DNA from: Tepidisphaeraceae bacterium
GTDB taxonomy: Bacteria > Planctomycetota > Phycisphaerae > Tepidisphaerales > Tepidisphaeraceae
Reading direction: 5' to 3'
NCBI GenBank assembly: GCA_036794395.1
Contig: DAIRGS010000003.1
Span: 1-62,748 of the forward strand
Length of the DNA stretch: 62,748 bases
Positions 23,323-37,339 of this stretch are shown one piece after another. Position numbers and translations under genes: made by a program. Under the pieces are notes generated by a model. That model was given only the letters and a program-made list of their open reading frames with translations, ran no database searches and was not told where the DNA came from. The number at the start of each line of letters is the position of its first letter. Within the stretch, counting starts at the first letter, position 1.

Positions 23323-23655
23323 TCACCTCGATGAACCGTCCGCAGCCGTACCCGGTATCATGCTAATCTTCGCTTGGAACAGATCCACTGCGTGCTTCCG
23401 CTCTTCCGGCGTAAGCCCCGCCGCATCCATCCGCCGGTTCCAGTTGTTTCGCAAGTCCTCCAGGCTCTGGAGGCCGTCAAACCCGACGGCGCCGGCCTTG
23501 CGGACGTACACGAGGTTCTCGGGTTCGCTGACGGTAATCTCCGCGATTTCGGGATCGGTGAACGACTCGCCCAAGACGTACCCCACAATGGCCGCCATGA
23601 ACGGCGACATACCGGGAAACCTTGAAGGCCGAAGTTTTGTGACAAGAGCATCCAT
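23323..23655 (-). CDS. Hypothetical protein (110 aa), last gene of the minus-strand operon
   Basis: ATG at 23655; the track ORF uses a TTG at 23676. It lies 9-30 nt downstream of the helicase stop, and its own stop lies 8 bp from the stop of the convergent gene (23314). Confidence 0.5.
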   Translation of the reverse strand: MDALVTKLRPSRFPGMSPFMAAIVGYVLGESFTDPEIAEITVSEPENLVYVRKAGAVGFDGLQSLEDLRNNWNRRMDAAGLTPEERKHAVDLFQAKISMIPGTAADGSSR

Positions 23656-23685
23656 CGATTGACGATCTCTGCCCAATGCGAATTC

Positions 23686-26600
23686 TCAGGTTAGAAGGTC
23701 CGACAGTCCACGAATATGACTCACCGTTGAATCTGCCGCACCATCGGCGACGGAGACGATCACACGAAATAGCGGTCCATCGGGCAACAGAAGCTGATGG
23801 CTTTCAAAGTGGTCATCAAAGATATCGGGGTCGGCGGTGACTCGCGCCAAACCCGGTTCGCCCGGCAACGAGAGGCTAAACGTCCGAGGTTCCAACTCCT
23901 TACATACCGTGCCGGGCGGCAGCATCTCGGATTGCAACAGCAATTGACCGATCTGGGCGGGTGTGTACGGCGGTGGCGAAAACGCCGGAGGCAGAAGATC
24001 CGCATCGCTCAGCTCATCAATGTCAAACGTTGACGCCTCGGCGGCGCCCACGAGTATCTCGACGTTCCGCACGGCTTCGTGCCGTCCCTTTTCGCGGTCT
24101 TCTCTGCGTCGCAGCGCGGCCGCTTCGAATTCCTTGGGTAGCTGCGCGAGAATCGGCTGCAATTTTCCGATCACGCCGTTAAAAAGCCCGATCCGCGCGC
24201 TGAGCGCAAAATAAACATCCGCCTCCACGGTATCGGCGTACGCGAGATTGATGACGCGCACCTCTGGAAACCGCTGTCCGATGCGGTCAATGCGGCCGAT
24301 TCGCTGCTCGACCTTCATTGGGTTCCACGGCAGATCGTAATTCACGACCACGCCACAGCTTTGTAAGTTCAGTCCCTCACCAGCGGCGTCGGTGCATACG
24401 AGAACCTTTACAGTGCCGTCCTTGAGCATTCGCTTGATCTGCTCCTTCGTCCGTCCGGTCCATCGACCGGCCGCATCGCGAATCTCGCCGCCGCGCCCGC
24501 TGAAACAGCCGACCGATACCTCTAGCTGGTCTGCAAGGAACTCGCGCAGAAAGTCCATCGTGTCGGTGTATTGCGTGAAGACGATCGCCGAGTCGTACCC
24601 GTCGGCGAACGCGCTCTGAAGCTGGTCGCGCACTTCGCGGGCCTTGGTGTCGGTCCCGAGCTTTGCGATCCCCTTCAGCAGATCCTGAATCGAACTCTCC
24701 TCTTCCACGCCTAGCGCCTTGGCCTGAAGTTCATCCGCCTCGTCATTAGCGAGGACTTCCAACGCCCGGTCGTCCTGGGGGAGATCCTCCTCCAGCCGAT
24801 CTTCATCCCCGCGGCCCGGCTCGAAGCCCTTGATCCGGGCCAGTCGCGATTCCAACGTCTTTCGGAGCGAATAAAAGCTGCTGGCCAATCGGCGACGATA
24901 AATCGTCATCACGAACCCGACCGCAGTTTTTTTGTCCGGCGACGCGGATTGATACGTGGTGCTGATGTAATCCTCCACCGCGTCGTACAGCTCGCGCTCC
25001 GCCGTGCTAAGAACGACAGCTTTGTCCAGCACCTTCCGGTCCGCGATGGGCGAATCAAGCAGCCCCTTTTTGAAATACCGCCGAAGAAGGTTGCGCGTGT
25101 GCCGCGACATCCGGTGGTAGATCGGGCTGCACGATCGGAGAAGCGCGATCAGGGCTTGGCGTTGCTTTGTGCTGAGCCGCTTAATTGGGATCGTCGTGTT
25201 CGGCTCCCGCGCGGCGGCCAACACTTTGTTGACATCAATCTTCGATAGATGCATCGCGTCGCTGATTCGATGGACCAGCGTGTCCGGCGCGGCCCCGAAG
25301 TCGCGTTCGGTGGCCTGAAACAGCACTGCGGCGCGGTAAAGGTCCTCGTCGCCCGGATTGCCCCCGAGCATCTCAAAGTAATTCGTGAAGACGCCCGGCG
25401 ACCATTCATCGGGCATGCCCAGAAGGCTGAGAAGGTCCCACATCTCGACCGGATGGACTTGCATCGGCGTCGCGGTGAGCAGCAACAAGGATTTCGCCTT
25501 GTGTTTGATCGAATGCATCAACCGCAAGAGGCGGTTTGGACCGCCCTCCTGCGGCGTTCCCGGCGCGCTTCGGCGGGCATGATGTGCCTCGTCGAGCACA
25601 AATAAATCCCAGTCTTCGGCTTCGATCAGCTCCTGTTGCCGCTCCCGGCGCCGCATCAGGTGGCTGCTGACCAGCACGATGGGCTCTTTCGTCCATTCGC
25701 CTCGGCTGACCGGCCGTTCAAGTGGCCCCGTTCGGTGATGGTACTCCGGCCAGCACAGTGACTTCCCCGTGTAGATCGGCACCAGCAGATTGAACTTCTC
25801 ATAAAGCTCCGATTGCCACTGCTTCAGCAGCCCCTTGGGCGCCATGATCAGCACCCGCTTGGCCAGCTCCGCGATCCACGTGTGCCGGATAATCAAGCCG
25901 GCCTCGATCGTCTTGCCGAGCCCCACTTCGTCCGCGATCAGCAGACGTAGGGGCCAGGTGTCGATCATCCGCTTGTAGGCCCGAAGCTGATGCGGCCATG
26001 GTTTCACAGCGCTGGTGACCACCGCCACCATCGCGCCGTCGGGCCGCTTGGGCGCATGTTTAATGAAGGACCAGATCAGACGTCGTCGCTCATCGATCGG
26101 CATTGGCGGCGGCGCATCGTCCGCCGGGGCGTCGCCATTTTCTTCATTGGTGGTCTTCTTGTCCTTCGCCTTCGGCGGCTTTACGAACGTGTCGTCGATC
26201 GGAAGAAACTCCAGAAGCTTCTCTTTGAGCGCCTCCGGGAAGTCGAATACTTTGGCGCTTTTCGCTTTCCCCGACCAGAGCTTGGCAAACTCGCCCTCGG
26301 TTTTCCTGACTTTCGCGGCGTCCCACTCACCTCGCCACGAGCAGCTCACGTCGAACGATTCGCAATTGTTCAGCCACCCCGCCGGCGTCTCGTTGATCGA
26401 TCCCTTGAACACCAGCTTGTCGCCGGCATCGTCCACGATGACGCCGGCCTTGGCGTGATACAAACCCAACCCAGCTCGCATCTCGCCGTGCTCATCCAGC
26501 GGCACGGCAATTTTCACGTCCAGAAACCCGTGCGCGATCATCCACGCCAGATAGCCGATGTTTCGTCGCGCTTGAGGGGATTCGTGAGTAAGTGGAATGC

Positions 26601-26907
26601 GGTTGATCGACGATCGCGTCACCGCCTCGCGAACGTCGTACCCCTTCTTGATGTCTTCCACATCCTGTTCGCTCAGGGTGCAACCGACGAGCAACTGCAT
26701 CCGCCCGCCGCGGGCGATCAGTGCGTCCAGCCCGCGTGCCGCCAGCGCCAGCACGTCGCCCGAAAAATACCCCGTTGCCCGCAGGTACAGGCGCGCCCGC
26801 GACAGCGCCGGGACGAAGAACATCGCAACCAGATCGCCGTCCTCGTGGCTGTACCCGACGTCCCAGTCCCGGTCTCGCAGCGATGATGTCCCCGTCCCCT
26901 CGTTCAC
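23686..26907 (-). CDS. PLD-like nuclease domain fused to SNF2-family helicase
   Basis: N-terminal HKD-like motif [12 protein letters not shown]...[8 protein letters not shown]. SNF2 motifs [41 protein letters not shown] and [22 protein letters not shown]. A GTG start at 26907 overlaps the methylase stop (GTGA). The track ORF's extra 164 N-terminal codons overlap the methylase gene. Confidence 0.85.
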   Translation of the reverse strand: [1073 protein letters not shown]

Positions 26908-29900
26908 GGCTTCCCCGCCTCCGGCTGGTCGAACAGCATCCATTCCTTGGATTGCGGCACCTCGCCAGAAAACATGAGCTTCCGTAGCTTCTCCATCGCC
27001 TCCGCGTCCGCCGCCGCGCCGGCAAGCGCGCCCTTGCCGCTCACCATCCGTGGGGTTGGCAGCACCTGTAGCGCGGCCTCCATCGCCATCAAGAAGGCGC
27101 TGTCCTTGTGCAGTTCGGATCGTTCGATTAGTTCCTTGGCCACACCCACATTCCGTTCCCGCACCGCCTGGGCGACCTGGTGAAGGGCGTCGAGCCGGCA
27201 AATACCGTTGAGCGATCCAATGGCGCTCTTCTTGGCCCGCTGGCCGGAATCCCACACGATGACGTCGCCGCCCTTGAGTTCCAGCACCTTGTTGCGCAAC
27301 TGCTCGTCGAAATTGACGCCGACCACCCGCGCCAGCTTCAGTGCTTCGTCTGCCGGAAACTGCGGGCTTTTGAAAGCGTCCCACGCCAGCACGAACCACT
27401 CGGTTACCGGATCGAGGCTCGCCTTTCGATGGACCGTGGTCAACTCAAGAAGACGCCACTGCTTTACCGCCTTTCGAGCGGCCATGAGAGCGTCTTCAGG
27501 TCGCACCGCATACGGGTCCCACTCCTCATCCTCCACGAGCTTCAACTGCGCGCCCTTGACCGGCAGTGGCCTCTGGTTCGCCCGGCCGCGCTTCATGGGC
27601 CAATTCTTGCTGAACACTTCAAGCGCCGGTCCGAAGCACGACAAATACAGGTCCACACCGCTCATGCCGATGTCGTGAAATAGCCCTACTTTTTGAAGCA
27701 CAATCTCCGTTACCTTTGGCTCGACGTCTTCCCAGTATGTGGTTTCGGCATTCGCGGCCGGCGTCTGGCGCGGACGGCAGACCAGGAAGATCGTACTCTT
27801 CGCGGCGTTCTTATCCTTGATGTGCAGGCTCCCCTCCGCTTCAGTCTGGATCGGCCAGCTTGCCGTGATTACAAATCCCGCGTCCACCAGACCCTTGGCA
27901 AGCGCGTCCCACGCGCCGGTGGCCTTGTGGGTGAACATGAGGGTCATGATGCCCTCGGGCTTCAGTACCCGACGGGCCTCGGTAAAGATCGCCTGCATCC
28001 GCTCCTGGTAGTCGCGGCTGGCGCGTTTCTTCGCCCCGCCGCTTCCTTTGACCTTGGAAAAATCCTTGAACTTCGCCGGGTTCGCGACGGCCTCGCGGTC
28101 CTTGTCGGTCAACTGGTCGGCGAACTGTTCGGGGAACAGCAGCCCCGCAGTCCGCTTCAGCCACACGTAAAAGAAGTCCGCCAACTCCGCGTACATCACA
28201 TTGTCGTAGTAGGGAGGATCGAGTACGACCGCGTCGATGCTGGCGTCGTCGAGTTGCGTAACATTGTCGCCAGAACCTCGAATTATCGTAATTTGGGAGG
28301 TGCCATCTGTCTCCGCCGACGAGCGACGAAAATCGAGGGTAAGGCCGTCGCCGGACAACTCGGTACCACTAAGCTGAATAAGCTCCGCCAAAGCTTTCCC
28401 AGTCTGCTTGATCGCCCAGTCATAGCCCAAACCTGCAACACATGGAGCCATTTCCGCATAGCTCCAAAGGAACGCGAAATCGTGCCGATCAAAGACTCCG
28501 GCGACCACTTCACGATTGGCGTGCCAACGGACTGATCTCGCGTTGTAATTCAGGAGTTTGTCCAATCCAATCGCCAGGTAGGACATCGCCGCTTTGTCGA
28601 TCTCGTTGAGTTTCTTCGATGTTGCGCATTCGGCGACAAGCTCGTGGAAGACTTCCACGCTCGTCCCGTGGCCGAGCAACTGGCGAGGTGAAAACATGTC
28701 GCGCCACTTCAACATGCCGACCTTGCGAGGCTTGTCTGTGCCGCTGCCGGTGTCATCGCCGGTCTTGTGCCCGTGCGGAATCTCCTCGTCCGGCACGATA
28801 TTTCTCGCCAGCCATTCTGGCATCTTGGCATCCAGCGCCTTTTTCACCTGATCGGCGATGTCGTCTTCGGGGCGTGGGGCGCGGAAGCCGCGGGTCTTCT
28901 TGATCTTGGGTTTACCGTTCTTGGCGTGACCGATCACTTTGCGTTCGGTGTAGACGACGGCGTAGAGCTGCTCGCCCATGGCACCTGCAATGGCTTGAGC
29001 CTGAATCTCCGTGTTGTTGAAGACCCGACGACAGTCGGGAAACGGGCAGAGGCCGTCGCCACCTTTGACGGTACCAGCAGATTGGTGGGACGTATCGTCG
29101 ACAATTTCAAACTTGCAGACGCGGTCTTCCGGGTTACCCGTCTGCGGCACCACCCGCACGCCAACGCCCTTGTTGTTCAACCTCCAATTCGGCGACAGCG
29201 GCACAAGCCCGTTGCAATAGGGGCAGTGAACGGTGCGGGCCCACAGATAAGTCGCATCCTCACGTTCGGGGTTCGGATCGCTTGGAAAGAATGGCTGCAT
29301 CCGCTCCTTCATCACCGTCAGCCACTTCCCAGCGAGCACTTTGTACCGTTGCAGCAACTCAGGACCAAAACGTGCGGGGAATTCGACCGTTGCCTTCAGG
29401 ATGAGCCAAGCGACGGGGTTGAGGTCATTGGCGTAGGTATCACAGCCGAGCCGCATCGCTTCGAATGGGATTGACCCACCACCTGCGGTGCTATCGAGGA
29501 CACGGGGAGAAACACCCTGCCCCCCGAGGGTGCGAACATAATCGCGATCTGCTTCGGTTGGGTTGTAGCCAAATGCTCGGTCATATCCATAAGGGTTTGT
29601 AACCCGAACGCCGGTCCGTATTGCCTCTTGTATTAAGACCCTTGCTTTCGCTGGGTCGCCGTGGATGCCAAGGGCGTGGAGGAATTTCTTGTGATCGGCG
29701 TCGGCGGGAAGAAGGGACGCCAACACCGCGGCCCGGCTGGCGACGAGCGGACGACGCGCCCACCACACGTGCAGCCGGTTCGGCGCCGGGAACGGCGTCA
29801 TCGGCGTCCGCTCGCGCAGCGACTCGATTCCAATCTCCACGATGGGCAACCACTCCTCGATCAGCCGGCGCGTTGAACCAACGGCGGGCTTGCGGCTGAT

Positions 29901-29921
29901 GTCGGCGGCGGCATTGGTCAT
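26904..29921 (-). CDS. DUF1156-type DNA methyltransferase (DPPY motif, Zn-ribbon insert)
   Basis: N-terminal NRLHVWWARRPLVASRA (DUF1156 signature). SAM motif VLDSTAGGGSIPFEAMRLG. Catalytic VLDPPYYDNVMYAELADFFYVW. CPYCNG...CPFPDC zinc ribbon. The ATG at 29921 is preceded by GGAAGGAG. Confidence 0.85.
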   Translation of the reverse strand: MTNAAADISRKPAVGSTRRLIEEWLPIVEIGIESLRERTPMTPFPAPNRLHVWWARRPLVASRAAVLASLLPADADHKKFLHALGIHGDPAKARVLIQEAIRTGVRVTNPYGYDRAFGYNPTEADRDYVRTLGGQGVSPRVLDSTAGGGSIPFEAMRLGCDTYANDLNPVAWLILKATVEFPARFGPELLQRYKVLAGKWLTVMKERMQPFFPSDPNPEREDATYLWARTVHCPYCNGLVPLSPNWRLNNKGVGVRVVPQTGNPEDRVCKFEIVDDTSHQSAGTVKGGDGLCPFPDCRRVFNNTEIQAQAIAGAMGEQLYAVVYTERKVIGHAKNGKPKIKKTRGFRAPRPEDDIADQVKKALDAKMPEWLARNIVPDEEIPHGHKTGDDTGSGTDKPRKVGMLKWRDMFSPRQLLGHGTSVEVFHELVAECATSKKLNEIDKAAMSYLAIGLDKLLNYNARSVRWHANREVVAGVFDRHDFAFLWSYAEMAPCVAGLGYDWAIKQTGKALAELIQLSGTELSGDGLTLDFRRSSAETDGTSQITIIRGSGDNVTQLDDASIDAVVLDPPYYDNVMYAELADFFYVWLKRTAGLLFPEQFADQLTDKDREAVANPAKFKDFSKVKGSGGAKKRASRDYQERMQAIFTEARRVLKPEGIMTLMFTHKATGAWDALAKGLVDAGFVITASWPIQTEAEGSLHIKDKNAAKSTIFLVCRPRQTPAANAETTYWEDVEPKVTEIVLQKVGLFHDIGMSGVDLYLSCFGPALEVFSKNWPMKRGRANQRPLPVKGAQLKLVEDEEWDPYAVRPEDALMAARKAVKQWRLLELTTVHRKASLDPVTEWFVLAWDAFKSPQFPADEALKLARVVGVNFDEQLRNKVLELKGGDVIVWDSGQRAKKSAIGSLNGICRLDALHQVAQAVRERNVGVAKELIERSELHKDSAFLMAMEAALQVLPTPRMVSGKGALAGAAADAEAMEKLRKLMFSGEVPQSKEWMLFDQPEAGKP

Positions 29922-29991
29922 GGTCACGAACTCCTTCCCAGGAAATGCATCTTCCTTCTGGGCTGGCGGAAAGCAAAGTGTTCGCATTCGG

Positions 29992-30441
29992 TCAGACGGT
30001 CTTGCCCGTGTTCTGGTCGATTCGAACAAGCCGGAGATGCGATGGCGAGAGGTGATCGAAATCGCGGTCGGTGGTCATCAAGGACGCCTGAGAAACATGA
30101 GCTACGGCGGCGATCCAAAGATCGTTTTTGCCCATTTGGTTACGGCCGACTGATCGGCTGTGGGCGTCGATCTCCGCGTAGGCATCGATGATTTGGGATT
30201 CATTGATATCGACGGTGACGAACTGCGCAAGGATGTGATTGACGGTTGTGACTTTGGCATTTCCCCACGCGCGTTTTTTCGCGAAAGCCAGTGCTTCGCC
30301 TCGGGTGACGACGCAAATCAGTGGTCGGTACGGTGAGGTCAGCAGCGTGTAGTCGGCCTCGATTTGCTGACCAACAGTCTTGCCCCGCGAATAATGGATG
30401 ACGATGTTGGTATCCAGGAGGTAAAGCAACGGCGCGGTCAT
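29992..30441 (-). CDS. PIN-domain (VapC-like) ribonuclease toxin
   Basis: LLDTNIVIHY...DLWIAAVA...LMTTDRDFDHL carries the PIN acidic residues. The ATG overlaps the upstream stop (ATGA). Confidence 0.85.
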   Translation of the reverse strand: MTAPLLYLLDTNIVIHYSRGKTVGQQIEADYTLLTSPYRPLICVVTRGEALAFAKKRAWGNAKVTTVNHILAQFVTVDINESQIIDAYAEIDAHSRSVGRNQMGKNDLWIAAVAHVSQASLMTTDRDFDHLSPSHLRLVRIDQNTGKTV

Positions 30442-31391
30442 TCGACCTCCGCCAGGGTGCGGAGAATCTCATCGTCGCTTTCGTCGCCGGGCCATTTTCC
30501 GAAGACCGCTTTCATTCCAGTGGTAGCCGTCTGCGGTTGCAGCAAGTGTGACTTGCGAAGCGTGAGACCTCCCGGAGGTGGCAGTCGGGAGAACAGCCGA
30601 TCGGCCGCGGTGGCGGCATCAATCGCTTCGGCATCGATGCGCAGCGCCGTGCCGGAAGCGCGGTAGGTCACCTGGCCGTTGACGACCACGTCCTGGTCAA
30701 GATGTTGCCGTAGCGGAGCCACGTTGGACCCGAGCCAGATGCCCCGGAGTTTCTGGCCGTCCTTGAGGATCAGGATGAAGACCTTGTCGCTGGCCCGGAT
30801 CATGTCCAGATGGCCGGTCACACGCGCTCGCACCGGCACCGGCGTTTCCATGTACAGCAAGCTGGCTATCTCGGCCAGCGCGCGGTCGATCTTCGGGGGA
30901 CGCTCGACCGGTAGCCGGCCGCCGAGTAACGAGATCTCATCCACGCCATGATGGAAGACCGGCTCTTTGAAGCCTTCGAGCCGCCTGAGAACACCAATAT
31001 CAAACCGATCGCTGTCGCGAACGTTCCTTGCAACGTCGGTGACCATGTCACCTATCGCGTCGAATGCGGTATCGTCCTGACTGGGCAGCGCACCAAAAAG
31101 CTGGCCTTGCTTGTACACCTCGTCGGCCACGTCCCCGAACCGTGGCGCTTGGAAATGCAGACGCGTGCTGTTCTCAGCGCCAGCACTGATGCCAACAAAT
31201 CGCACATCGGACGCCCGGCGCATCCACTGCGGTCTGCGCCCACGTCCGCGACTGGAACCTCGGAAGCCCATGCCGACCGAATCGATGGCGAGGCTCTTCA
31301 TCCGTCGAAGGATCGCGCCAACGGGCTCGGGGTCGGGCCGGCCCTCGGCTACACGCCTTCCTCTGATGCTGACTTGATGTTCAACAAGCAT
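30438..31391 (-). CDS. 317-aa protein coupled to the PIN toxin (antitoxin position, unusually large; C-terminal GKWPGDESDDEI tail)
   Basis: No recognisable enzymatic motif. The C-terminus AVFGKWPGDESDDEILRTLAEVE resembles antitoxin-type tails. It has a 4-nt overlap with the PIN gene. Confidence 0.6.
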   Translation of the reverse strand: MLVEHQVSIRGRRVAEGRPDPEPVGAILRRMKSLAIDSVGMGFRGSSRGRGRRPQWMRRASDVRFVGISAGAENSTRLHFQAPRFGDVADEVYKQGQLFGALPSQDDTAFDAIGDMVTDVARNVRDSDRFDIGVLRRLEGFKEPVFHHGVDEISLLGGRLPVERPPKIDRALAEIASLLYMETPVPVRARVTGHLDMIRASDKVFILILKDGQKLRGIWLGSNVAPLRQHLDQDVVVNGQVTYRASGTALRIDAEAIDAATAADRLFSRLPPPGGLTLRKSHLLQPQTATTGMKAVFGKWPGDESDDEILRTLAEVE

Positions 31392-31496
31392 GACAGGCCA
31401 AGCCTTTCCGCAGTTCAGGAGCGCCCCGCGGCGGCGGGGGCGTTGGGCAATGTCTGATACTATTCTACGCCGGACACCATCGGTCAGGGGAGCATG

Positions 31497-31982
31497 CTAA
31501 GGCGTGGTGAGCAAAACCCGAAGCGCAGCCAAGACGCGCCGCGGATAGACGCGATGGACAGCCATGCCGAGCCAATACCCCGCCTCTTCGCGGCTCATTT
31601 TATCGATGCCGTCGGCGACCATCTTGATTCGATCGACGCTTCGCATCGGCGCGAGCACGCGGAAGAGCAACGCCATGGTGAGCGCCAAGTCCTCGTCGAT
31701 CTGAAACTCAGCGACCTGGCCCTTCCTGACATTTGCGATACTGATGCCGGCCTGGCGAAGGCGCTTGGTAATGCGTGATTCCATCATGCGCCACGGTCGC
31801 CCGGCGAGCGAAGCTGTCCGTTCGGCCTGCTGTAAACGCGGGGTAGACGTGCTGGGCAATTGCCAGATCGCCACCTCGATTTCAGTGTTCGTCGTGGCAG
31901 CGACGCGCAGTTGATAAATTGGATGGCTGTCGGCCCGACTGAGCGAGAGATTCGGTCGAAGCGGAATTGGATTCGCAGTCAT
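31497..31982 (-). CDS. Small protein (161 aa) in the slot occupied by DUF3780-type genes in DUF499/DUF1156 loci
   Basis: The ATG lies 1 nt after the TAA of the ATPase gene. The C-terminus reads DEDLALTMALLFRVLAPMRSVDRIKMVADGIDKMSREEAGYWLGMAVHR. The family assignment is from memory and is not verified. Confidence 0.6.
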   Translation of the reverse strand: MTANPIPLRPNLSLSRADSHPIYQLRVAATTNTEIEVAIWQLPSTSTPRLQQAERTASLAGRPWRMMESRITKRLRQAGISIANVRKGQVAEFQIDEDLALTMALLFRVLAPMRSVDRIKMVADGIDKMSREEAGYWLGMAVHRVYPRRVLAALRVLLTTP

Positions 31983-31983
31983 G

Positions 31984-34900
31984 TTAAGCACTCTTTTCTG
32001 GCGCGGCTTCAGCTTCAACGTAAGCTTCGCCGCCGCCGTACTTGGTCATGGCATTCATGAACGCGTCGGCCTTTTCGGTTGCTGTCGCCAGGGGCGCTCC
32101 GAAGGCCAGTGTGTATTGCGCTTCGAACTGATGATCGGAAGCGGCGCGGATTTGTGTGTCGATGAACGACTTCACGGCATTGGCCTTCGTCATATTGCCG
32201 CCGAACTCGACCTGAAGCGCGTCAATGCCCTCGGCATCAACGTTGGCGGAAAAGTGGCACGTGATGGTCGCATCGCGAAAAGTGGCCAGAGCCTGATGGA
32301 CCATCCATGCTGGGTTGGCTTCCCAGAGACGAATGCGAATCTGACTAACTGTTTTGATCCCCCCTTTACGCAACTTCTCGAACAGTTCGGCGAGCGCCTG
32401 TTTTAGCGGTCCTTGTGCTGAGAATTCAGGCTTCGGCTTCGCGGGCTCGGCGGCGGACAGGCCGATGCCTCCAACGCCGGTAATCGGTGCCGCGCCTGTT
32501 GGTGAGGTCTTCGTGCCACCACCGCTGACGCCGCCGTATGTCTGGATCGGTTCTTCTTTCGGTTTGCGCGGCCAAAGCCCAACCTTGTTCGCCTCCGACA
32601 TCGTGTAGACGAAGGCGTTGTCACTGATTGAAATAGAAGGCGTCGGATCACCTGGACCCCAGACCAGATCGCCTTGTTTATAGACGAACAACCCAGTGTC
32701 GATCCCCTGGCGAATGCATTGCATCAGGGGACCGTTGTCGAGCAGCATCGACAGCTTCGGCGCGCGCCGGAATTCGTTTCGCAATTCCTGCGTAGTGAGA
32801 AAGCCCTTCACTTTTAGCGGCGTCTGGTCGCGCACGAAGCCAGGCGCATCGGGCTGATCTCCCGCTTCGAGGAGCTTCTTTTGATCGCGGAGCGCACGAC
32901 GGATGTGGACCTGCCCATTGCCGGGATCGCTGGAGACGTTCGCCAGCTCGATCGCGGTGTGGCCGAGTTGGACATTTCCGCCGCCGACCGCAATGTGGCT
33001 GGGGTAAAACAGGTGGCGGTAGCATTGCATGATTGCTTGCGCGATGCGGAAATTCGACTTATCGAATTCTTCGTTCACCGTGCGCTGTTGATGATCCGCA
33101 AGTTCGCGCATGCGATCGGGCTTCTTCAATTCCACCAACGCAAGTTTTCGGCGAACCGCTTGCTTCATGTCCTCGCGATAGCGCTCATCGGCTACGAGGA
33201 AGACCAGGTTGTTCTGATAACTTCGAAGTTCTTCTTTCGTTCCTTTACGCTGGAACATGCGCACGATATCCCCAGGCAGCGACGTTGGCTCATCGGACAC
33301 GGCAAACGCGTCGTAGCCGAGCAGCACGAGATAGGGTCTGCCATCGCCGATGTCGTCCGGCACGTTGTAAGGAGCCGCCGCAAAGGGAATCAGTTCAAGG
33401 TTTTGGCCGCGACCGTCGAATAGATCACTGAGCGTTTCGTTTAACGTTGTTCGCAATTCATCTGCATCAACATTGTTCATCGCCTTGCGGATCATCTGTG
33501 TGAGGTTCGCCTCAACCCGGAATCGCAACGGCGCGCCGGGGCGGTCGTCGAGATAGAGCGATTCGGCGACGAACTGCTTGCGCGCCGACTCAATGAAGGT
33601 CGGCTCGATTGACGGCGAGCAGACGGAGTAACGAAGCTGATCCGGTTTGACGCCCTGCGCGGCCTCTCCATACGCGAGCGTGTGAAGAAAGATCGTATTG
33701 GCGACGTAACTGGTCACGGGCGGCTGACCGGGAAAGTTGATTGAGTCGAGCCGCTGTGCGATAGCCGCATCTTTTCCCGGTACCGCGGCCACGTCGGTGG
33801 CAAGTGCGGTTGTGTAGGACCCTTGGCCGAGACGAGTAGTGATCTCCTCCCGGATTGGGCCGTAGGCGGGGTCAATGTGGTGAAGGTGAATGGCATGAGC
33901 ATCGGCTGGCCTCGATTCCCAGAGGTGCCGAACGGTGCGCGACAACAGCCGAAGCATCCCACGAGTCCGTTGAAACGTGGAAAGGCTGCTGGTCTTCTCG
34001 ATCAGCGTGTTTAGCGTCTCGGGATGAAGCGGGTATCCGCGGCGAAACTGGTCGCGCGTCTCCGCACTGAACGCTTCGGCCGGGAGTGCCTCTTTGTTCT
34101 TGTCCCACATGCCGAAATACGCCGAGAGGACCGGGGTCGCGGCGTCGAGATCGACGTGATCGAAGAGCCGGCGACGAAGGACATCGACGGTTTCGTCCTC
34201 CTCCGTGGGATTGAGCTGGGTGGATTTACGCGAGACGATTTGCTCGGCCTCCTCGAACGCCTTCAACGCAATCTGATGTTCTGCCTTGTAGGCATCTTTG
34301 GCTTCTTTGTCGTCCGCCTTTACGGCGAGCGTGAAAACCAGCGCAACCTGAGGTGTGGCGGACACGGCTTTAATAAGACCCTGAATGAACGCGGAGAACT
34401 GCTCAGCGCCGTTCGGAAAAACCCTGGCCACCTTTCGGAGATAGACCGAAACCTCATCTATGACGATGAGCGTCGGCTCGCCGCCGAATAGCTCGGCGAT
34501 TGTGCGGTCTCCCGGTGCAGTATGCGTTTCATCGCTCTTGCGGACACGCTCGAAACCGGCGCGCCCGGCGAGACGGTAGGCCATCTCGCCCCAGAGGCTG
34601 CGAGCAACCAGGCCTGGCTCCAGCGCCAGACCATTGGCGGGATCGGCATTCTCCCCATCGAGTGCTGCGACACGGACGTGCCCCTTCGGCAGAAGACTTG
34701 GATCGACGAACTCCTTCACGTTGGCGACTTTGTGCATCCCGCGGACAGCGTGGATCAGGGCGATCAAGCTATGGGTCTTGCCGCCGCCGTACTGCGTATC
34801 CAGTCGAATGACCGAGTTCATCTCGCCGCCGACGCCGCTCAGTCGTCGGCACACCGTTTCCAGCAAGGTCCGCAAACCCCGCGTGGGGTACGTATTCTGA

Positions 34901-35043
34901 AAGAAAACCGCGGGATCGCTGTATTCCCGCACCTTTCCATCGGGAGTGGTGACAGCGGATAAATCAGCGGCAAACTCCTCGTCCCGGAGTCGGCCGGACA
35001 ACACGTCCTTTCGGGGATGGCAAAGATCAAAGATTGTCTGCAT
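31984..35043 (-). CDS. DUF499-type (BrxC/PglY-like) large ATPase
   Basis: N-terminus MQTIFDLCHPRKDVLSGRLRDEEFAADLSAV and P-loop LDTQYGGGKTHSLIAL are typical of the DUF499 ATPase family. 1019 aa. Confidence 0.8.
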   Translation of the reverse strand: MQTIFDLCHPRKDVLSGRLRDEEFAADLSAVTTPDGKVREYSDPAVFFQNTYPTRGLRTLLETVCRRLSGVGGEMNSVIRLDTQYGGGKTHSLIALIHAVRGMHKVANVKEFVDPSLLPKGHVRVAALDGENADPANGLALEPGLVARSLWGEMAYRLAGRAGFERVRKSDETHTAPGDRTIAELFGGEPTLIVIDEVSVYLRKVARVFPNGAEQFSAFIQGLIKAVSATPQVALVFTLAVKADDKEAKDAYKAEHQIALKAFEEAEQIVSRKSTQLNPTEEDETVDVLRRRLFDHVDLDAATPVLSAYFGMWDKNKEALPAEAFSAETRDQFRRGYPLHPETLNTLIEKTSSLSTFQRTRGMLRLLSRTVRHLWESRPADAHAIHLHHIDPAYGPIREEITTRLGQGSYTTALATDVAAVPGKDAAIAQRLDSINFPGQPPVTSYVANTIFLHTLAYGEAAQGVKPDQLRYSVCSPSIEPTFIESARKQFVAESLYLDDRPGAPLRFRVEANLTQMIRKAMNNVDADELRTTLNETLSDLFDGRGQNLELIPFAAAPYNVPDDIGDGRPYLVLLGYDAFAVSDEPTSLPGDIVRMFQRKGTKEELRSYQNNLVFLVADERYREDMKQAVRRKLALVELKKPDRMRELADHQQRTVNEEFDKSNFRIAQAIMQCYRHLFYPSHIAVGGGNVQLGHTAIELANVSSDPGNGQVHIRRALRDQKKLLEAGDQPDAPGFVRDQTPLKVKGFLTTQELRNEFRRAPKLSMLLDNGPLMQCIRQGIDTGLFVYKQGDLVWGPGDPTPSISISDNAFVYTMSEANKVGLWPRKPKEEPIQTYGGVSGGGTKTSPTGAAPITGVGGIGLSAAEPAKPKPEFSAQGPLKQALAELFEKLRKGGIKTVSQIRIRLWEANPAWMVHQALATFRDATITCHFSANVDAEGIDALQVEFGGNMTKANAVKSFIDTQIRAASDHQFEAQYTLAFGAPLATATEKADAFMNAMTKYGGGEAYVEAEAAPEKSA

Positions 35044-35170
35044 CGGATAAGACCTTCAAGCTACCGAGGGGTGTCATTACCGTCGGTCAGAGTTGAAGGA
35101 TAATCGGATGGTGCTCAACAAACCAGAATGGTCGAAGCCGCCGCGGCGCGATGTCGCGCGCCGAGCAGTT

Positions 35171-37144
35171 TTATGCCGCTCGTCGGCAAACGTAGCAGGG
35201 CCGTTTTATGAAACCGTCGCTTGGCAGGCCAATATGCTGCTCGGTGCAGTCAAAACGCCCCAACTCGATGCGGAGGAGCCGATGCGTCTCGTCGGAAGTT
35301 GATGACGCTGAAGTTCCTACGAGACGCATCGCATGTTGACCCTCCATGTCCCCAAAAAAATTTTTGGGATCGAGGGGCAGCGATAACTTCACCTCGACCG
35401 CCTTGGTTTCCATGTCAACGACAATCGAACCGATGACCGCCGCCAGCAATTGCCGTTGGGCGAACTTGGGCATGTCGGCAACGTTCGTCGCCATCGATTG
35501 AAGTTGGGCAACGACCTTATCGGCGATGGCCGCTGGATCGAGAGACTGCATCTCTATTGCTACTTCGGCGGCGGCGATCTGCTCGTCGAGCATCCGACGT
35601 TCCGATTTGAGCCGATCAAGCTCAATACGGGCATCGGCGAGCGTTTCCTCGTCCAACGTCGAGACAATCAGCTCTGTGCGCCGTCGGATCTGATCTCGCC
35701 GTTTCTGCATGTCGGCGATCTGCTCGGTCGGCATCGTGCGCTGGGCTTCGGCTTCGACCGACTCAACGATTCGGTCGCGCAACCCGTCGATGTCGGTCAA
35801 AACCTCGGCGACGAGTCTGACAACCGCCTCCTCGATCGGCTTGGCGGGTATCATCCGATTGAAGATGCTGCCTTTGATGTACCCGCGCCGCCCACGGCGA
35901 TGGCGGTAATACCGAACCTTTTTACCGGCGCGCCCGCAGAGGACGCCCACCAGCGGCTCGCCATCCTGCTGGGCGAATAAAAGCCCAGTCAGCAAGTAGT
36001 CGCTTGCTTGATGCTTGCTCTTGGTTCGTTTCTGTCGATCGGGATCGCCTCGCCGCTCCCAAATCCGCTCATGTTCAGCCAGGGCGAGTTTTCGAAGCTC
36101 CGGTTTAAGAAAGGGCTCCATCATCGGTTGATCCTGAACGAACCATTTGGACACGGGTCGCTGGCGCACCGGGATGTTCTTGGCGGTTGCCTGGATCGCA
36201 ATATCCAAATGGACGCGCTTGGGCGCGCTGGGCTGGCGCTCGTGATAGATGGCGCTGCTCGTTCGGTTGGCGATCGATCGACCCGTATACGCTTCCTGCT
36301 CGTAGATGACCTCAACCTGATGTTGGCTCCATTGGCGACCTTGCGGAGAGCGGACGCCGCGCCGATTCAGAAGATCGGCAATGCGTTTACCGCCCCAGCC
36401 CTTGCGGAAGTGCAGGTCGAAAATCTCACGCACGATGGCGGCTTCCTTAAGAAAACCCGGCATCAACAGAACCTTCTCATTCTTCTGCTTGCGATAATGA
36501 CCTTTGCTGCCGCCGCCGATCTGGCCGTAGGTATCGATGACCGCCTCCGTTTTGGCGTCGAGTTTCTGCTGACGCCCGTCGCGCAGATCACAGATAATGT
36601 GGCTCCGCTCGCCGTCGGCGGTCAGATACAGCCGCCAGCACCCATATGGCGTATGACTGCTGGTGACTTTGCAGCCGTTTTCGAGCGCCAGCTGCGCGCC
36701 CTGGGTCGAGCGCTGCGAGATACTGAACGCCTGCTCCTGCGCGGCTTCGTACTTGGCAACCTTAATCAGATTCGCGTAAGGACCATCGGGAACGTCATCG
36801 GCGACGGCGATTAAACGGATGCCGACGCTACTGCACTCATGCTCGAACCAGAATCCGTGGGCCGAGCCACCGCGGGTCAATCGGTCCAACCGCTGCAAGA
36901 GGATGAAGTCGAAGTCATTCTTCTCCCGTTTGCGCGCCAGCAGCGCGGTCATGTCCACCCGTTTGCCGGGCATCGAACCTGTCACTCCATCCAGCACGAC
37001 CTTGTCCACGAAGATCATGCCCATCCTGTCGCCGTAATCCCGCAGTAGCGCCAGTTGGGCGTCGGTTGAGGTCGTCCCCTCCGAGTCGTCGCTGGCGCGC
37101 ACGAGGCAGATGTATCGCTTGTTCTCAGTTTCCTTCCTATCCAT
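35171..37144 (-). CDS. Large serine recombinase
   Basis: Resolvase-type N-terminal domain (YICLVRASDDSEGTTSTDAQL, LLQRLDRLTRGG), a recombinase domain and a C-terminal coiled-coil (LDRLKSERRMLDEQIAAAE). 657 aa. Confidence 0.85.
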   Translation of the reverse strand: MDRKETENKRYICLVRASDDSEGTTSTDAQLALLRDYGDRMGMIFVDKVVLDGVTGSMPGKRVDMTALLARKREKNDFDFILLQRLDRLTRGGSAHGFWFEHECSSVGIRLIAVADDVPDGPYANLIKVAKYEAAQEQAFSISQRSTQGAQLALENGCKVTSSHTPYGCWRLYLTADGERSHIICDLRDGRQQKLDAKTEAVIDTYGQIGGGSKGHYRKQKNEKVLLMPGFLKEAAIVREIFDLHFRKGWGGKRIADLLNRRGVRSPQGRQWSQHQVEVIYEQEAYTGRSIANRTSSAIYHERQPSAPKRVHLDIAIQATAKNIPVRQRPVSKWFVQDQPMMEPFLKPELRKLALAEHERIWERRGDPDRQKRTKSKHQASDYLLTGLLFAQQDGEPLVGVLCGRAGKKVRYYRHRRGRRGYIKGSIFNRMIPAKPIEEAVVRLVAEVLTDIDGLRDRIVESVEAEAQRTMPTEQIADMQKRRDQIRRRTELIVSTLDEETLADARIELDRLKSERRMLDEQIAAAEVAIEMQSLDPAAIADKVVAQLQSMATNVADMPKFAQRQLLAAVIGSIVVDMETKAVEVKLSLPLDPKNFFGDMEGQHAMRLVGTSASSTSDETHRLLRIELGRFDCTEQHIGLPSDGFIKRPCYVCRRAA

Positions 37145-37328
37145 GTTCTTTTCCTTCGCGGCCCATCTGCTGACGGACGAGTTCCGTCAGCAGCGCATCG
37201 ATCGCCGCTCTGAACCGATGCTGTTCTTCCGGCGTTTGATTGCGCCGAATGACAGTTATGGATATCGCCTTGGTATGAGCCGCTGGCGCAATCCGCTTCT
37301 CCGCCACCTTCTTCTTCAACAGTGCCAT
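37137..37328 (-). CDS. Small hypothetical protein (63 aa)
   Basis: The ATG at 37328 is preceded by GGAG. It overlaps the recombinase start by 8 nt. Confidence 0.45.
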   Translation of the reverse strand: MALLKKKVAEKRIAPAAHTKAISITVIRRNQTPEEQHRFRAAIDALLTELVRQQMGREGKEHG

Positions 37329-37339
37329 CTGGACTCCTT

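What the first reader, a model, noticed from the sequence alone, without database searches (positions are those of the whole stretch)
29992..31391. PIN toxin with an oversized 317-aa partner inserted in the middle of the DUF499/DUF1156 operon
A VapC-type PIN gene (149 aa) overlaps by ATGA an upstream 317-aa ORF. That ORF is three to four times the size of ordinary VapB antitoxins. It has no HTH, AbrB or RHH motif that I can see, and ends in GKWPGDESDDEILRTLAEVE. The pair sits between the small protein and the methylase gene, after a 105-bp gap (31392-31496) that could hold an internal promoter. The pair could be an addiction module stabilising the island, or an abortive-infection effector arm wired into the R-M-like system.
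Basis: partly seen in the sequence, partly recalled or inferred. Interest (0 to 1): 0.65.

Follow-up and report, generated by a model that had tools for sequence, protein, structure and literature searches.

The report
PIN toxin with multi-domain antitoxin
The two genes are a self-contained toxin–antitoxin cassette with an unusually large, uncharacterised antitoxin, and it recurs inside DNA-methylation-based phage-defence operons in many phyla, which makes it a credible but untested back-up anti-phage module.

Summary
A 317-aa ORF (30438-31391, minus) overlaps a 149-aa PIN gene (29992-30441) by ATGA. The pair lies between the DUF7680 gene and the DUF1156 methylase gene of an Hma (DUF499 ATPase / methylase / SNF2 helicase) operon.

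The 317-aa protein ('A') belongs to a large unnamed family: about 1,500 clusters at 50% identity, with no Pfam, NCBIfam, PADLOC or PHROG model. It has four parts:
- an N-domain of about 180 aa with no structural match in PDB or BFVD;
- an OB fold;
- a disordered linker;
- a near-invariant GKWPGDE(S/T)-helix tail.

The same tail ends short antitoxins (Phd/YefM, RHH_3, or minimal 65-aa forms). Two of the three whose neighbours I checked precede the same PIN subfamily, so the tail is the likely PIN-neutralising element.

A is followed by this PIN in about 70 of 80 species-level loci. The PIN active site is conserved. PIN decays far more often than A.

The cassette is not a core Hma part, since 0 of 80 related Hma loci carry it. 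It is cargo in a known Hma embedding hotspot. Across phyla, 25 of 55 well-flanked loci link it to restriction-modification (R-M) systems, 18 of them as hsdR-hsdS-A-PIN-hsdM.

Verdict: a new variant of VapBC-type toxin-antitoxin modules. A defence role is plausible but untested.

The parts
30438..31391 (-). Gene for the 317-aa 'A' protein, a multi-domain antitoxin candidate from an unnamed family
   Evidence: ORF and translation. Family of about 315-aa proteins. No Pfam, NCBIfam, PADLOC or PHROG hit. AF2 model pLDDT 89.8, pTM 0.83.
30846..31391 (-). A residues 1-182: alpha/beta N-domain with no known structural relative. Conserved loops GRSxxRGRxPxW (about 45-57) and DSDRFD (126-131; S127 and D131 invariant).
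   Evidence: Domain-only AF2 model pLDDT 94.3, pTM 0.91. Best Foldseek hit in PDB has E 0.14 and in BFVD E 0.18. Profile against PDB sequences found nothing. Conservation. It is the least conserved folded region, at 36% mean pairwise identity.
30606..30845 (-). A residues about 183-262: OB-fold domain resembling tRNA_anti / RPA / LysRS anticodon-binding domains. Conserved motifs LDMIRAS and RPSGxLLRIDA.
   Evidence: Foldseek against PDB: RPA14 E 4.5e-4, prob 1.0; also LysRS N-domain, CspA, IF1 and SSB; target-normalised TM 0.44-0.67. One homologue matches PF01336 over the full profile length, but sub-threshold at E 0.089.
30441..30605 (-). A residues about 263-317: low-confidence linker, then the near-invariant tail GxAAvFGKWPGDE(S/T)DEEIxxaLxEv. 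This is the proposed PIN-neutralising element.
   Evidence: pLDDT 58-72. It is the most conserved region of the family, at 55% identity. The same tail ends short Phd/YefM-, RHH_3- and minimal antitoxins. Two of the three whose neighbours I checked precede the same PIN subfamily.
29992..30441 (-). Gene for a 149-aa VapC-like PIN-domain nuclease, the toxin candidate. Its start overlaps the stop of A (ATGA).
   Evidence: PF01850 E 6e-12. NCBIfam VapC models match below their cut-offs. Nearest solved structures are VapC 6nkl and 3dbo. D10, E49, D107 and D125 are kept in at least 98% of 61 partner PINs.
31392..31496 (-). 105-nt spacer between DUF7680 and A. It carries a -10-like TAGAAT (31467-31462), CTGACC 14 nt upstream (31487-31482), and GGAAAGG ahead of the ATG.
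   Evidence: Sequence. Alignment with five relatives places TACAAT at the TAGAAT position in L171 and L001, and shows the RBS region conserved. The consensus scan finds no canonical sigma-70 promoter or terminator. No operator-like palindrome.
31497..32018 (-). DUF7680 small protein. It is a regular accessory gene of this Hma subtype and the upstream boundary of the cargo slot.
   Evidence: PF24728 E 2e-40. It follows HmaC directly in 80 related loci.
31984..35043 (-). HmaC / DUF499 ATPase
   Evidence: PF04465. PADLOC HmaC E 2.5e-98.
26904..29927 (-). HmaB / DUF1156 DNA methyltransferase, the downstream boundary of the cargo slot. Likely start is GTG 29927 or ATG 29921.
   Evidence: PF06634 and N6_N4_Mtase. 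PADLOC HmaB E 1e-65. SD and start read.
23686..26907 (-). HmaA SNF2/PLD-type helicase. Likely start is GTG 26907, overlapping the HmaB stop in GTGA.
   Evidence: Pfam helicase domains. PADLOC and NCBIfam hits. Junction sequence. The same 4-nt overlap occurs in L171.
17410..40523 (.). About 23.1-kb genomic island in tRNA-Glu(CTC) that carries the whole Hma operon with its cargo
   Evidence: tRNA at 40496-40569. A 28-nt direct repeat of the tRNA 3' end lies at 17410-17437 (27/28), with 0 expected by chance. A 13-nt arm-type motif occurs five times near both ends. Integrase and recombinase genes are present.

Best explanation
The pair is an autonomous, horizontally mobile VapBC-type (type II-like) toxin-antitoxin cassette. 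The 149-aa PIN protein is an active RNase toxin. The 317-aa protein 'A' keeps it silent through its C-terminal GKWPGDE-helix tail.

In place of the usual small DNA-binding domain, A carries about 260 residues made of an orphan alpha/beta domain plus an OB fold. I propose that this part is a ligand or nucleic-acid sensing module that decides when the tail lets go. The trigger could be a phage protein or nucleic acid, or loss of A by proteolysis. Once released, PIN cleaves tRNA or rRNA and infection is aborted.

In this window the cassette is cargo embedded in the known hotspot of an Hma operon, between DUF7680 and the methylase gene. It is co-transcribed with the methylase gene or lies just upstream of it. 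It probably acts as an independent second layer of defence rather than as a subunit of Hma.

Shown here:
- gene anatomy and family membership;
- the fold of A;
- an intact and conserved PIN active site;
- strict A-PIN synteny;
- sharing of the tail with short antitoxins of the same PIN subfamily;
- cargo status within Hma;
- recurrent embedding in R-M systems.

Inferred, not shown:
- toxicity of PIN;
- neutralisation through the tail;
- a sensing role for the N-domain and OB fold;
- anti-phage function.
For: 1. PIN domain with all four acidic residues present. They are conserved in at least 98% of 61 partner PINs.

2. In 80 species-level loci from more than 10 phyla, about 70 have this PIN subfamily directly downstream on the same strand, mostly with a 1- or 4-nt overlap.

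3. Decay is asymmetric. Nine loci have an intact A with a truncated PIN, 2 have a split A with an intact PIN, and 7 have both broken. A is twice as long, so it should be hit more often under neutral decay. By my own binomial arithmetic, P is about 1e-3. This is the pattern expected when only the toxin can be lost safely.

4. The tail is the most conserved part of A and is predicted to be disordered on its own. It recurs on 35-100-aa proteins, including Phd/YefM+tail, RHH_3+tail and minimal linker+tail forms. The minimal form P0263 is followed by a PIN that scores E 1.7e-54 against the A-partner PIN profile. The Phd/YefM form P0338 lies right after hsdS and is followed by an ORF starting MPLSGGYLLDTNILVALVRGK.

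5. Cargo status. None of 80 Hma loci related through DUF7680 contain A or this PIN. DUF7680 and hmaB abut in about 30 of them. About 15 carry other inserts in the same slot, including HipA-like, HIRAN and MqsA/Panacea genes. This fits the published finding that 62.7% of Hma systems carry embedded genes, many of them defence systems (bioRxiv 10.1101/2024.01.29.577857).

6. Autonomy. Close relatives L170 and L172, and also L004 and L008, stand alone among housekeeping genes.

7. R-M association. 18 of 55 well-flanked loci are hsdR-hsdS-A-PIN-hsdM, 3 lie beside a type I system and 4 beside other methylase systems. The PIN stop overlaps the hsdM start by 4 nt in 11 loci.
Against:
- The tail is acidic (net charge -4). 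Many solved VapB tails place a basic residue in the PIN active site (my background knowledge), so the inhibition geometry may differ.
- One Phd/YefM+tail protein (P0320) is followed by non-PIN genes, so the tail may not be exclusive to PIN.
- The sensor role of the N-domain and OB fold rests only on analogy and on the N-domain being the least conserved folded region.
- The N-domain loops (DSDRFD, GRSxxRGRxPxW) are conserved strongly enough that an enzymatic role cannot be excluded.
- The PIN scores below NCBIfam's VapC equivalog cut-offs.
- Many loci are MAG contigs, so frameshifts and truncations may be assembly errors.
Confidence: 0.7

Rival explanations
1. It is a plain addiction (post-segregational killing) module. 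It stabilises the tRNA-Glu island or the host R-M operon and has no role in phage defence. The large antitoxin is simply an unstable protein, and its extra domains serve autoregulation or turnover.
For: The operon sits on a 23-kb integrative island with att repeats and recombinases. TA modules are classic stabilisers of such elements (background knowledge). At least 30 of 55 copies stand alone among unrelated genes. Type-I-embedded and stand-alone copies are interleaved across the tree, and three immediate neighbours are phage-type integrases, all typical of selfish mobile cassettes. PIN decay in 9 loci suggests weak selection for the toxin.
Against: The cassette occupies a precise, translationally coupled position inside type I operons across phyla: an ATGA overlap with hsdM in 11 loci. 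It also recurs next to four different kinds of methylase-based defence. Random island stabilisers would not be expected to do this. Genes embedded in Hma, BREX and type I systems were experimentally enriched for defence, with 7 of 9 tested candidates active. No operator-like palindrome or DNA-binding domain for autoregulation was found.
Confidence: 0.2
2. It is a PrrC-like guard that is physically wired to the methylation system. A, through its N-domain and OB fold, docks on the methyltransferase/specificity complex (HsdM/S, or HmaB). When a phage anti-restriction factor disables that complex, A changes state and PIN is released.
For: Its position directly upstream of the methylase gene is conserved in two unrelated system types: type I hsdM in 18 loci and Hma DUF1156 in the window, L171 and L173. 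There are further cases beside type IIG and N6_N4 methylases. Translational coupling to hsdM is seen. A short Phd/YefM-tail antitoxin with the same PIN occupies the same hsdS/hsdM slot. The precedent is PrrC within EcoprrI (background knowledge; notes that PrrC is almost exclusively embedded in type I systems).
Against: At least 30 of 55 well-flanked copies have no R-M neighbour, including relatives 73-75% identical to the window copy. An R-M partner therefore cannot be obligatory. Pairwise distances of A and HsdM correlate only weakly (r 0.37, 11 loci). The host systems are of several unrelated kinds, which would be hard for one docking surface to serve. The slot between hsdS and hsdM, and the slots between hma genes, are general cargo hotspots.
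Confidence: 0.15
3. It is not a toxin-antitoxin pair. A and PIN would form a constitutive two-subunit nuclease in which the OB fold and N-domain of A recruit a specific RNA or ssDNA substrate and the tail tethers the catalytic PIN subunit.
For: The OB fold resembles anticodon-binding and ssDNA-binding domains. The N-domain has strongly conserved charged loops. Strict 1:1 synteny and translational coupling are equally compatible with an obligate heterodimeric enzyme.
Against: The same tail occurs on 65-aa proteins with no other domain and on Phd/YefM and RHH antitoxins, which are inhibitors, not substrate adaptors. PIN is lost preferentially while A stays intact, which is unexpected if PIN were the useful catalytic half. 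Genomic contexts are scattered rather than linked to one pathway.
Confidence: 0.07

Closest known systems
VapBC type II toxin-antitoxin modules (PIN toxin VapC with antitoxin VapB)
   Same: The antitoxin gene comes first and overlaps a roughly 150-aa PIN gene. The four PIN acidic residues are present. The antitoxin C-terminus is flexible and conserved. The tail is shared with bona fide short Phd/YefM- and RHH-type antitoxins.
   Different: The antitoxin is 317 aa and has no AbrB, RHH, Phd or HTH DNA-binding domain. Instead it has an orphan alpha/beta domain plus an OB fold. No Pfam, NCBIfam or PADLOC model covers it. The PIN falls below the NCBIfam VapC equivalog cut-offs.
Hma-embedded candidate HEC-03 (ABC ATPase + VapC-like PIN; Payne et al., bioRxiv 10.1101/2024.01.29.577857)
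   Same: A two-gene cassette with a VapC-like PIN and a large non-VapB partner, embedded between hma genes. In HEC-03 both genes are needed for phage defence.
   Different: The partner here is not an ATPase: it has no P-loop and no ABC fold. It also carries an antitoxin-type tail. Neither protein matches any PADLOC v2 model, including the HEC/PDC models.
PrrC / RloC anticodon nucleases embedded in type I R-M operons
   Same: A latent RNase gene nested between hsd genes. The family is found as hsdR-hsdS-A-PIN-hsdM in 18 of 55 well-flanked loci.
   Different: PrrC is a single ABC-ATPase/ACNase protein silenced by the R-M complex itself and is almost exclusively embedded in R-M. A-PIN carries its own inhibitor, has an unrelated fold, and is stand-alone in at least half of loci.
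Sensor-antitoxin systems such as fused CapRel(SJ46), and Panacea-domain antitoxins (background knowledge; Panacea cargo seen)
   Same: Large antitoxin moieties whose extra domain is thought to sense a phage cue or to act as a versatile neutraliser. They are found in the same Hma slot in relatives (L093, L095, L173).
   Different: There is no sequence or fold relationship. The trigger and sensing role are proven for CapRel and only hypothesised here.
PIN TA modules 'transcriptionally coupled' to type I R-M subunits (Matelska et al. 2017, PMC5499597)
   Same: The general observation that PIN-type TA genes occur inside type I R-M operons.
   Different: That survey found the arrangements mostly not conserved between related species and did not describe this antitoxin family. 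Here one arrangement recurs across phyla with ATGA coupling to hsdM.

Membership tests
VapBC-type type II toxin-antitoxin | Toxin is a PIN-domain protein with the conserved acidic quartet | tested here: met
   PF01850 E 6e-12. D10, E49, D107 and D125 are present and kept in at least 98% of 61 family partners.
VapBC-type type II toxin-antitoxin | Antitoxin gene immediately upstream, co-oriented, usually overlapping | tested here: met
   ATGA overlap in the window. The same order occurs in about 70 of 80 loci, mostly with -1 or -4 nt spacing.
VapBC-type type II toxin-antitoxin | Antitoxin is small (about 70-100 aa) with an N-terminal DNA-binding domain (AbrB, RHH, Phd/YefM or HTH) for autoregulation | tested here: not met
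   317 aa. No such Pfam or NCBIfam domain. The AF2 model shows an orphan alpha/beta domain plus an OB fold.
VapBC-type type II toxin-antitoxin | Antitoxin C-terminal segment binds and inhibits the toxin | tested here: inconclusive
   Indirect evidence only. The tail is shared with short antitoxins that precede the same PIN subfamily. It is the most conserved region and has low pLDDT on its own. No complex model or binding assay exists. P0320 is a counter-example.
VapBC-type type II toxin-antitoxin | Toxin arrests growth and cognate antitoxin rescues | not testable with these tools
   Needs expression assays. The 9:2 decay asymmetry is the only proxy.
VapBC-type type II toxin-antitoxin | Meets the NCBIfam VapC equivalog score | tested here: not met
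   NF047959 scores 44.1 bits against a cut-off of 80. NF047863 scores 33.4 against 140.
Hma (helicase-methylase-ATPase) system, core component | Present in Hma operons of the same subtype | tested here: not met
   None of 80 loci retrieved through DUF7680 (42-80% identity) contain A or this PIN. Only the window, L171 and L173 do.
Hma (helicase-methylase-ATPase) system, core component | Matches a PADLOC Hma model | tested here: not met
   No PADLOC hit for A or PIN. HmaA, HmaB and HmaC hit their neighbouring genes.
Published embedded defence candidates (HEC/PDC in PADLOC-DB v2) | Embedded between genes of Hma, BREX, DISARM or type I R-M | tested here: met
   In the window it lies between DUF7680 and hmaB. 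In 18 well-flanked loci it lies between hsdS and hsdM.
Published embedded defence candidates (HEC/PDC in PADLOC-DB v2) | Sequence match to a HEC/PDC model | tested here: not met
   Zero PADLOC families at E<=0.01 for either protein.
PrrC-like R-M guard nuclease | Almost exclusively embedded in type I R-M | tested here: not met
   18 embedded and 3 adjacent of 55. At least 30 of 55 have no R-M neighbour.
PrrC-like R-M guard nuclease | ABC-ATPase N-domain fused to the anticodon nuclease domain | tested here: not met
   No ATPase domain or fold in A or PIN.
PrrC-like R-M guard nuclease | Silenced by binding the R-M complex and activated by a phage anti-restriction factor | not testable with these tools
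   Requires biochemistry or phage genetics.
OB-fold nucleic-acid-binding domain (tRNA_anti-like) | Five-stranded beta-barrel fold similar to solved OB domains | tested here: met
   Foldseek: RPA14 E 4.5e-4, prob 1.0. Also LysRS anticodon-binding domain, CspA, IF1 and SSB. Target-normalised TM 0.44-0.67.
OB-fold nucleic-acid-binding domain (tRNA_anti-like) | Pfam PF01336 match above threshold | tested here: not met
   The best result is one homologue at 13.2 bits, E 0.089, against a cut-off of 27. The window copy has no hit.
OB-fold nucleic-acid-binding domain (tRNA_anti-like) | Binds ssDNA, RNA or tRNA | not testable with these tools
   Conserved R/K positions in LDMIRAS and RPSGxLLR are only suggestive.

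The most novel reading that the evidence does not exclude
The A family is a new class of 'sensor antitoxin' that couples an RNase toxin to the state of DNA-methylation-based immunity. Its orphan N-domain and OB fold would detect a product of failed or inhibited restriction, for example a phage anti-restriction protein, unmethylated or single-stranded phage DNA, or tRNA fragments. Detection would then release the PIN. This would explain why the cassette sits immediately upstream of methylase genes in type I, type IIG, type III-like and Hma systems in many phyla. The single tail-only ORF on a viral contig (L174) would then be a phage-encoded antitoxin mimic that counters it.
Probability: 0.15. 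Interest if true: 0.8.

Novelty: new variant of a known kind. Interest (0 to 1): 0.55.

Why it matters
- It defines a large protein family with no name: about 1,500 clusters at 50% identity, spread across Planctomycetota, Myxococcota, Acidobacteriota, Bacteroidota, Verrucomicrobiota, Chloroflexota and at least one archaeon. The family has an orphan domain and is absent from Pfam, NCBIfam and PADLOC.

- It shows that one PIN-binding tail has been joined to very different N-terminal modules: none, Phd/YefM, RHH, or a 260-residue OB-containing module. This is a clear example of antitoxin modularity.

- It supplies a concrete candidate for the 'guilt-by-embedding' catalogue of defence systems. The arrangement hsdR-hsdS-A-PIN-hsdM recurs across phyla and is translationally coupled.

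- If the large module is a sensor, the system would offer a tractable model for how TA-based abortive infection is triggered, and for how it cooperates with R-M-type immunity.

Tried and rejected
- Sigma-70 promoter and terminator scan of 29800-32200 found no minus-strand promoter and no terminator. The internal-promoter idea therefore rests only on a partly conserved -10-like element.
- Searches for operator palindromes in the gap and for repeats flanking the pair found only short chance matches. The pair has no transposon- or integron-like footprint of its own.
- The A-family profile and the tail profile against PDB sequences found nothing meaningful.
- The N-domain model against PDB and BFVD by Foldseek gave no hit below E 0.1. 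Weak resemblances to ferredoxin-like, ACT and BMC folds were not accepted.
- Relaxed Pfam scans of the OB region and tail gave one sub-threshold tRNA_anti hit and nothing for the tail.
- A viral-contig scan for the family found no full-length relative and one tail-only ORF.
- Co-divergence of A with HsdM was weak (r 0.37, 11 loci), and A with PIN only moderate (r 0.59), probably blurred by my crude ORF starts. I do not use this as evidence for co-inheritance.
- The first genome scan with the 60-sequence alignment failed for lack of a conserved stretch. It was repeated with 13 sequences.
- The tail query of 31 aa was too short for the protein search. It was repeated with 55 aa.
- A heterodimer structure prediction was not possible.
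- Literature searches found no paper describing this family.
Full report
**1. Checking the observation**

On the minus strand, ORF 30438-31391 encodes 317 aa ending in ...FGKWPGDESDDEILRTLAEVE. ORF 29992-30441 encodes 149 aa. The stop of the first overlaps the start of the second in GTCGAATGACC.

The second protein is a PIN domain (PF01850, E 6e-12). It is VapC-like but scores below the NCBIfam equivalog cut-offs. Its nearest solved relatives are VapC structures 6nkl and 3dbo.

The neighbours are all on the same strand:
- DUF499/HmaC ATPase, 31984-35043;
- DUF7680 small protein, 31497-32018;
- DUF1156/HmaB methylase, 26904 to about 29927;
- SNF2/PLD helicase HmaA, 23686-26907.

This is an Hma system as defined in PADLOC. 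The 317-aa protein has no hit in Pfam, NCBIfam, PADLOC or PHROGs.

**2. The 317-aa protein ('A') is a real, widespread, unnamed family**

A search of 5.8 billion proteins gave 90 clusters. Nearly all are about 315 aa, and every one that carries a source name is called 'hypothetical protein'. An exhaustive profile search of 1.84 billion representatives gave 1,502 clusters at E<1e-3 and 528 at E<1e-30.

In one genome per species, 136 relatives were found. They come from Planctomycetota, Myxococcota (including complete Sorangium genomes), Acidobacteriota, Bacteroidota, Verrucomicrobiota, Chloroflexota, Gemmatimonadota and a Methanoregulaceae archaeon. The closest relatives are from Tepidisphaeraceae MAGs, so the window is probably from that lineage.

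**3. Architecture of A**

The AF2 model built on 60 homologues is confident (pLDDT 89.8, pTM 0.83) apart from the last 45 or so residues.

| Region (residues, approx.) | What it is | Evidence |
|---|---|---|
| 1-182 | alpha/beta N-domain, no accepted structural relative | Domain-only model pLDDT 94.3; best Foldseek E 0.14 in PDB, 0.18 in BFVD; sequence profile finds nothing in PDB |
| 183-262 | OB fold | RPA14 E 4.5e-4, prob 1.0; also LysRS anticodon-binding domain, CspA, IF1, SSB; one homologue grazes PF01336 at E 0.089 |
| 263-289 | variable, low-confidence linker | |
| 290-317 | tail TG.AAvFGKWPGDE(S/T)DEEI..aL.E | near-invariant across the family |

The N-domain has two strongly conserved loops, GRSxxRGRxPxW and DSDRFD.

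Mean pairwise identity by region is tail 55%, OB fold 44%, N-domain 36% and linker 28%.

**4. The partnership with PIN**

In the 80 species-level loci, a PIN of the same subfamily lies directly downstream on the same strand in about 70. The usual spacing is -1 or -4 nt. In 61 intact partners, D10, E49, D107 and D125 are kept in at least 98%.

Where the pair has decayed, the loss is lopsided:
- 9 loci keep an intact A next to a truncated PIN;
- 2 have a split A with an intact PIN;
- 7 have both broken.

A is twice as long as PIN, so neutral decay should hit A more often. By my own binomial estimate, P is about 1e-3. This is the expected signature of a toxin and its antidote. MAG assembly errors are a caveat.

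**5. The tail is a portable module**

A profile of the last 55 residues retrieved 222 proteins at E ≤ 1. The 120 best listed are 33-100 aa long and carry the same tail. They include:
- Phd/YefM+tail: P0338 (PF02604), P0320 and P0353;
- RHH_3+tail: P0328;
- minimal 65-75-aa linker+tail proteins on long contigs: P0263, P0260, P0251 and others.

Neighbourhoods were checked for three of them:
- P0263 is followed, with a 4-nt overlap, by a PIN that scores E 1.7e-54 against the profile built from A-partner PINs.
- P0338 lies directly after hsdS in a type I operon. It is followed by an ORF beginning MPLSGGYLLDTNILVALVRGK, to be compared with the window PIN's MTAPLLYLLDTNIVIHYSRGK.
- P0320 is the exception. 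It is followed by non-PIN genes.

The simplest reading is that the tail is the PIN-neutralising element. In the A family, a 260-residue module has taken the place that a DNA-binding domain occupies in ordinary antitoxins.

**6. Core Hma part, or cargo?**

A metagenome scan with the window's DUF7680 protein returned 80 Hma loci at 42-80% identity. None contains A or this PIN.

The canonical order is hmaC-DUF7680-hmaB-hmaA. DUF7680 and hmaB abut in about 30 loci. About 15 loci carry 0.8-9 kb of other genes in exactly this slot. In close relatives that cargo includes a HipA-like kinase, a HIRAN protein and MqsA/HTH-Panacea antitoxins.

This matches the published finding that 62.7% of Hma systems contain embedded genes, many of which are defence systems (bioRxiv 10.1101/2024.01.29.577857). 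Neither A nor its PIN matches any PADLOC v2 model, so the pair is not one of the published HEC/PDC candidates.

The embedding is nevertheless not unique to this window. Two relatives carry A-PIN directly upstream of a DUF1156 methylase gene:
- L171 has A-PIN-DUF1156-helicase.
- L173 has DUF499-DUF7680-[toxin + Panacea antitoxin]-A-PIN-methylase.

Their Hma proteins are 79-83% identical to the window's and their A and PIN are 71-77% identical. The embedding therefore predates the divergence of these three loci. Two equally close relatives (L170, L172) stand alone among housekeeping genes.

The cassette has no flanking repeats of its own. Its GC3 is unremarkable.

**7. Association with R-M systems across phyla**

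Of the 80 species-level loci, 24 show the order hsdR-hsdS-A-PIN-hsdM. Their HsdM proteins are 58-84% identical to each other. Four more lie beside a type I system.

Four more lie beside other methylase systems:
- L037: N6_N4 methylase, then A-PIN, then a 1,068-aa protein;
- L059: a type IIG Eco57I/MmeI-like enzyme;
- L062 (archaeal): A-PIN, then an N6_N4 methylase;
- L078: A-PIN, then methylases and a helicase.

Among the 55 loci with at least 3 kb on both sides, the counts are 18 embedded, 3 adjacent and 4 other, which is 25 of 55. In 11 type I loci the PIN stop overlaps the hsdM start by 4 nt. In several, the hsdS stop overlaps the A start.

Type-I-embedded copies are scattered over the whole A tree and interleaved with stand-alone ones. 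The window's clade is sister to type-I-embedded copies. The remaining neighbours are heterogeneous: M32 peptidases, FtsK, transporters and a few integrases.

I did not compute a formal background. My inference is that type I genes make up far less than 1% of a genome, so the enrichment is large. A general link between PIN TA genes and type I operons was noted in 2017. That survey called the arrangements mostly non-conserved and did not describe this antitoxin family (PMC5499597).

**8. Mechanism**

Best supported (about 0.7): an autonomous VapBC-like TA cassette. The tail of A silences an active PIN RNase. The cassette is embedded as cargo in the Hma operon.

By the guilt-by-embedding argument, a role as a second-line abortive-infection module is plausible, roughly even odds. 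That the N-domain and OB fold act as the sensor is a hypothesis. It rests on analogy with sensor antitoxins and on the N-domain being the least conserved folded part.

Rivals:
- a pure addiction module for the island (0.2);
- a PrrC-like guard physically coupled to the methylase complex (0.15), favoured by the constant position upstream of methylase genes and disfavoured by the many stand-alone copies;
- a constitutive two-subunit nuclease (0.07).

**9. The promoter question**

The consensus scan finds no sigma-70 promoter or terminator around the pair. A -10-like TAGAAT (31467-31462, minus) lies 14 nt after CTGACC. Among the five relatives aligned, TACAAT stands in its place in L171 and L001, and a TGAYC-type element at the same spacing is seen in L001 only. 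The GGAAAGG ribosome-binding region is conserved in all six sequences. A cassette-borne promoter is possible but unproven. In type I loci the cassette is packed without room for one.

**10. Wider context**

The whole operon lies on a 23.1-kb island (17410-40523) integrated into tRNA-Glu(CTC). The island is bounded by a 28-nt direct repeat and carries 13-nt arm-type repeats and integrase and recombinase genes.

**11. Verdict**

This is a new variant of a known kind: a VapBC-type module with a novel multi-domain antitoxin family, recurrently embedded in methylation-based defence operons. It is moderately interesting (0.55). The concept of embedded TA and defence cargo is already established. The family, its orphan domain, the modular tail and the conserved type I arrangement are, as far as my searches show, undescribed.

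Noticed in passing
window 17410-40523: A genomic island of about 23.1 kb is integrated in tRNA-Glu(CTC) (tRNA at 40496-40569, minus). A 28-nt direct repeat of the tRNA 3' end lies at 17410-17437 (27/28) and at 40496-40523. The motif TAATTCGGTATTG occurs five times near both ends (17480, 17500, 17597, 17618, 40403) and probably marks integrase arm sites. The island also carries a large serine recombinase (35171-37144), a Mu Gam-like gene (37340-37954) and a KaiC/AAA_25-like ATPase (38543-40138).
   Followed up: partly
window 20001-23314 (+ strand): A second candidate conflict system sits on the same island. It has a ThiF/E1-like protein (20001-21359), a TCAD9/APH-like kinase-domain protein (21287-22936) and a DUF6527 protein (22940-23314). 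This resembles the ubiquitin-like or 'ternary complex' conflict systems described from comparative genomics.
   Followed up: no
window 10000-17454: GC rises to 62-67% at 10-17 kb. A tyrosine integrase gene (16126-17454) ends on top of the left att repeat. This may be a second island integrated in tandem at the same tRNA site. No third copy of the 28-nt repeat was found in the window.
   Followed up: partly
L174 7782-8108 (IMG/VR UViG_3300047678_000247; protein P0342): A small ORF (79-108 aa) on a viral contig ends in TGLAAVYGKWPGDETEEQIMAALKELD. That is the A-family tail alone, and there is no PIN gene anywhere in the 16 kb held. It could be a phage-encoded antitoxin mimic against this PIN. 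It was the only relative found in the scan of 2.9 million viral contigs.
   Followed up: partly
L093 10442-13690; L095 1715-3600; L173 6085-7424: In the closest related Hma loci, the same DUF7680|hmaB slot holds other TA-like cargo: a HipA_C-like kinase, a HIRAN-domain protein and MqsA/HTH-Panacea (SocA) antitoxins. In L173 a Panacea pair and A-PIN occupy the slot together.
   Followed up: partly
L096 912-2654; L098 1977-3240: Two related Hma loci carry, in the same slot, a gene pair of about 283 aa and about 151 aa. The sizes resemble A-PIN, but neither Pfam (checked for the L096 pair only) nor the A or PIN profiles match them. This may be another uncharacterised two-gene cargo.
   Followed up: no
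L177 2315-3403 (protein P0320): A Phd/YefM+tail antitoxin is followed not by a PIN but by a 50-aa and a 201-aa protein without Pfam hits, and then by an N6_Mtase fragment. The 201-aa protein could be a different toxin served by the same tail.
   Followed up: no
L001, L041, L043, L047, L049, L050, L061, L071, L073, L075: These loci keep an intact A gene while the PIN is reduced to N- or C-terminal fragments or is absent. They look like orphan-antitoxin remnants.
   Followed up: yes
window 26904-26907 and 31984-32018: The Hma genes are translationally coupled. The hmaB stop and hmaA start overlap in GTGA at 26904-26907. The mechanical ORF list puts the hmaA start about 490 nt too far upstream, at 27399. 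The first possible start of the DUF7680 ORF overlaps the end of hmaC by 35 nt.
   Followed up: partly
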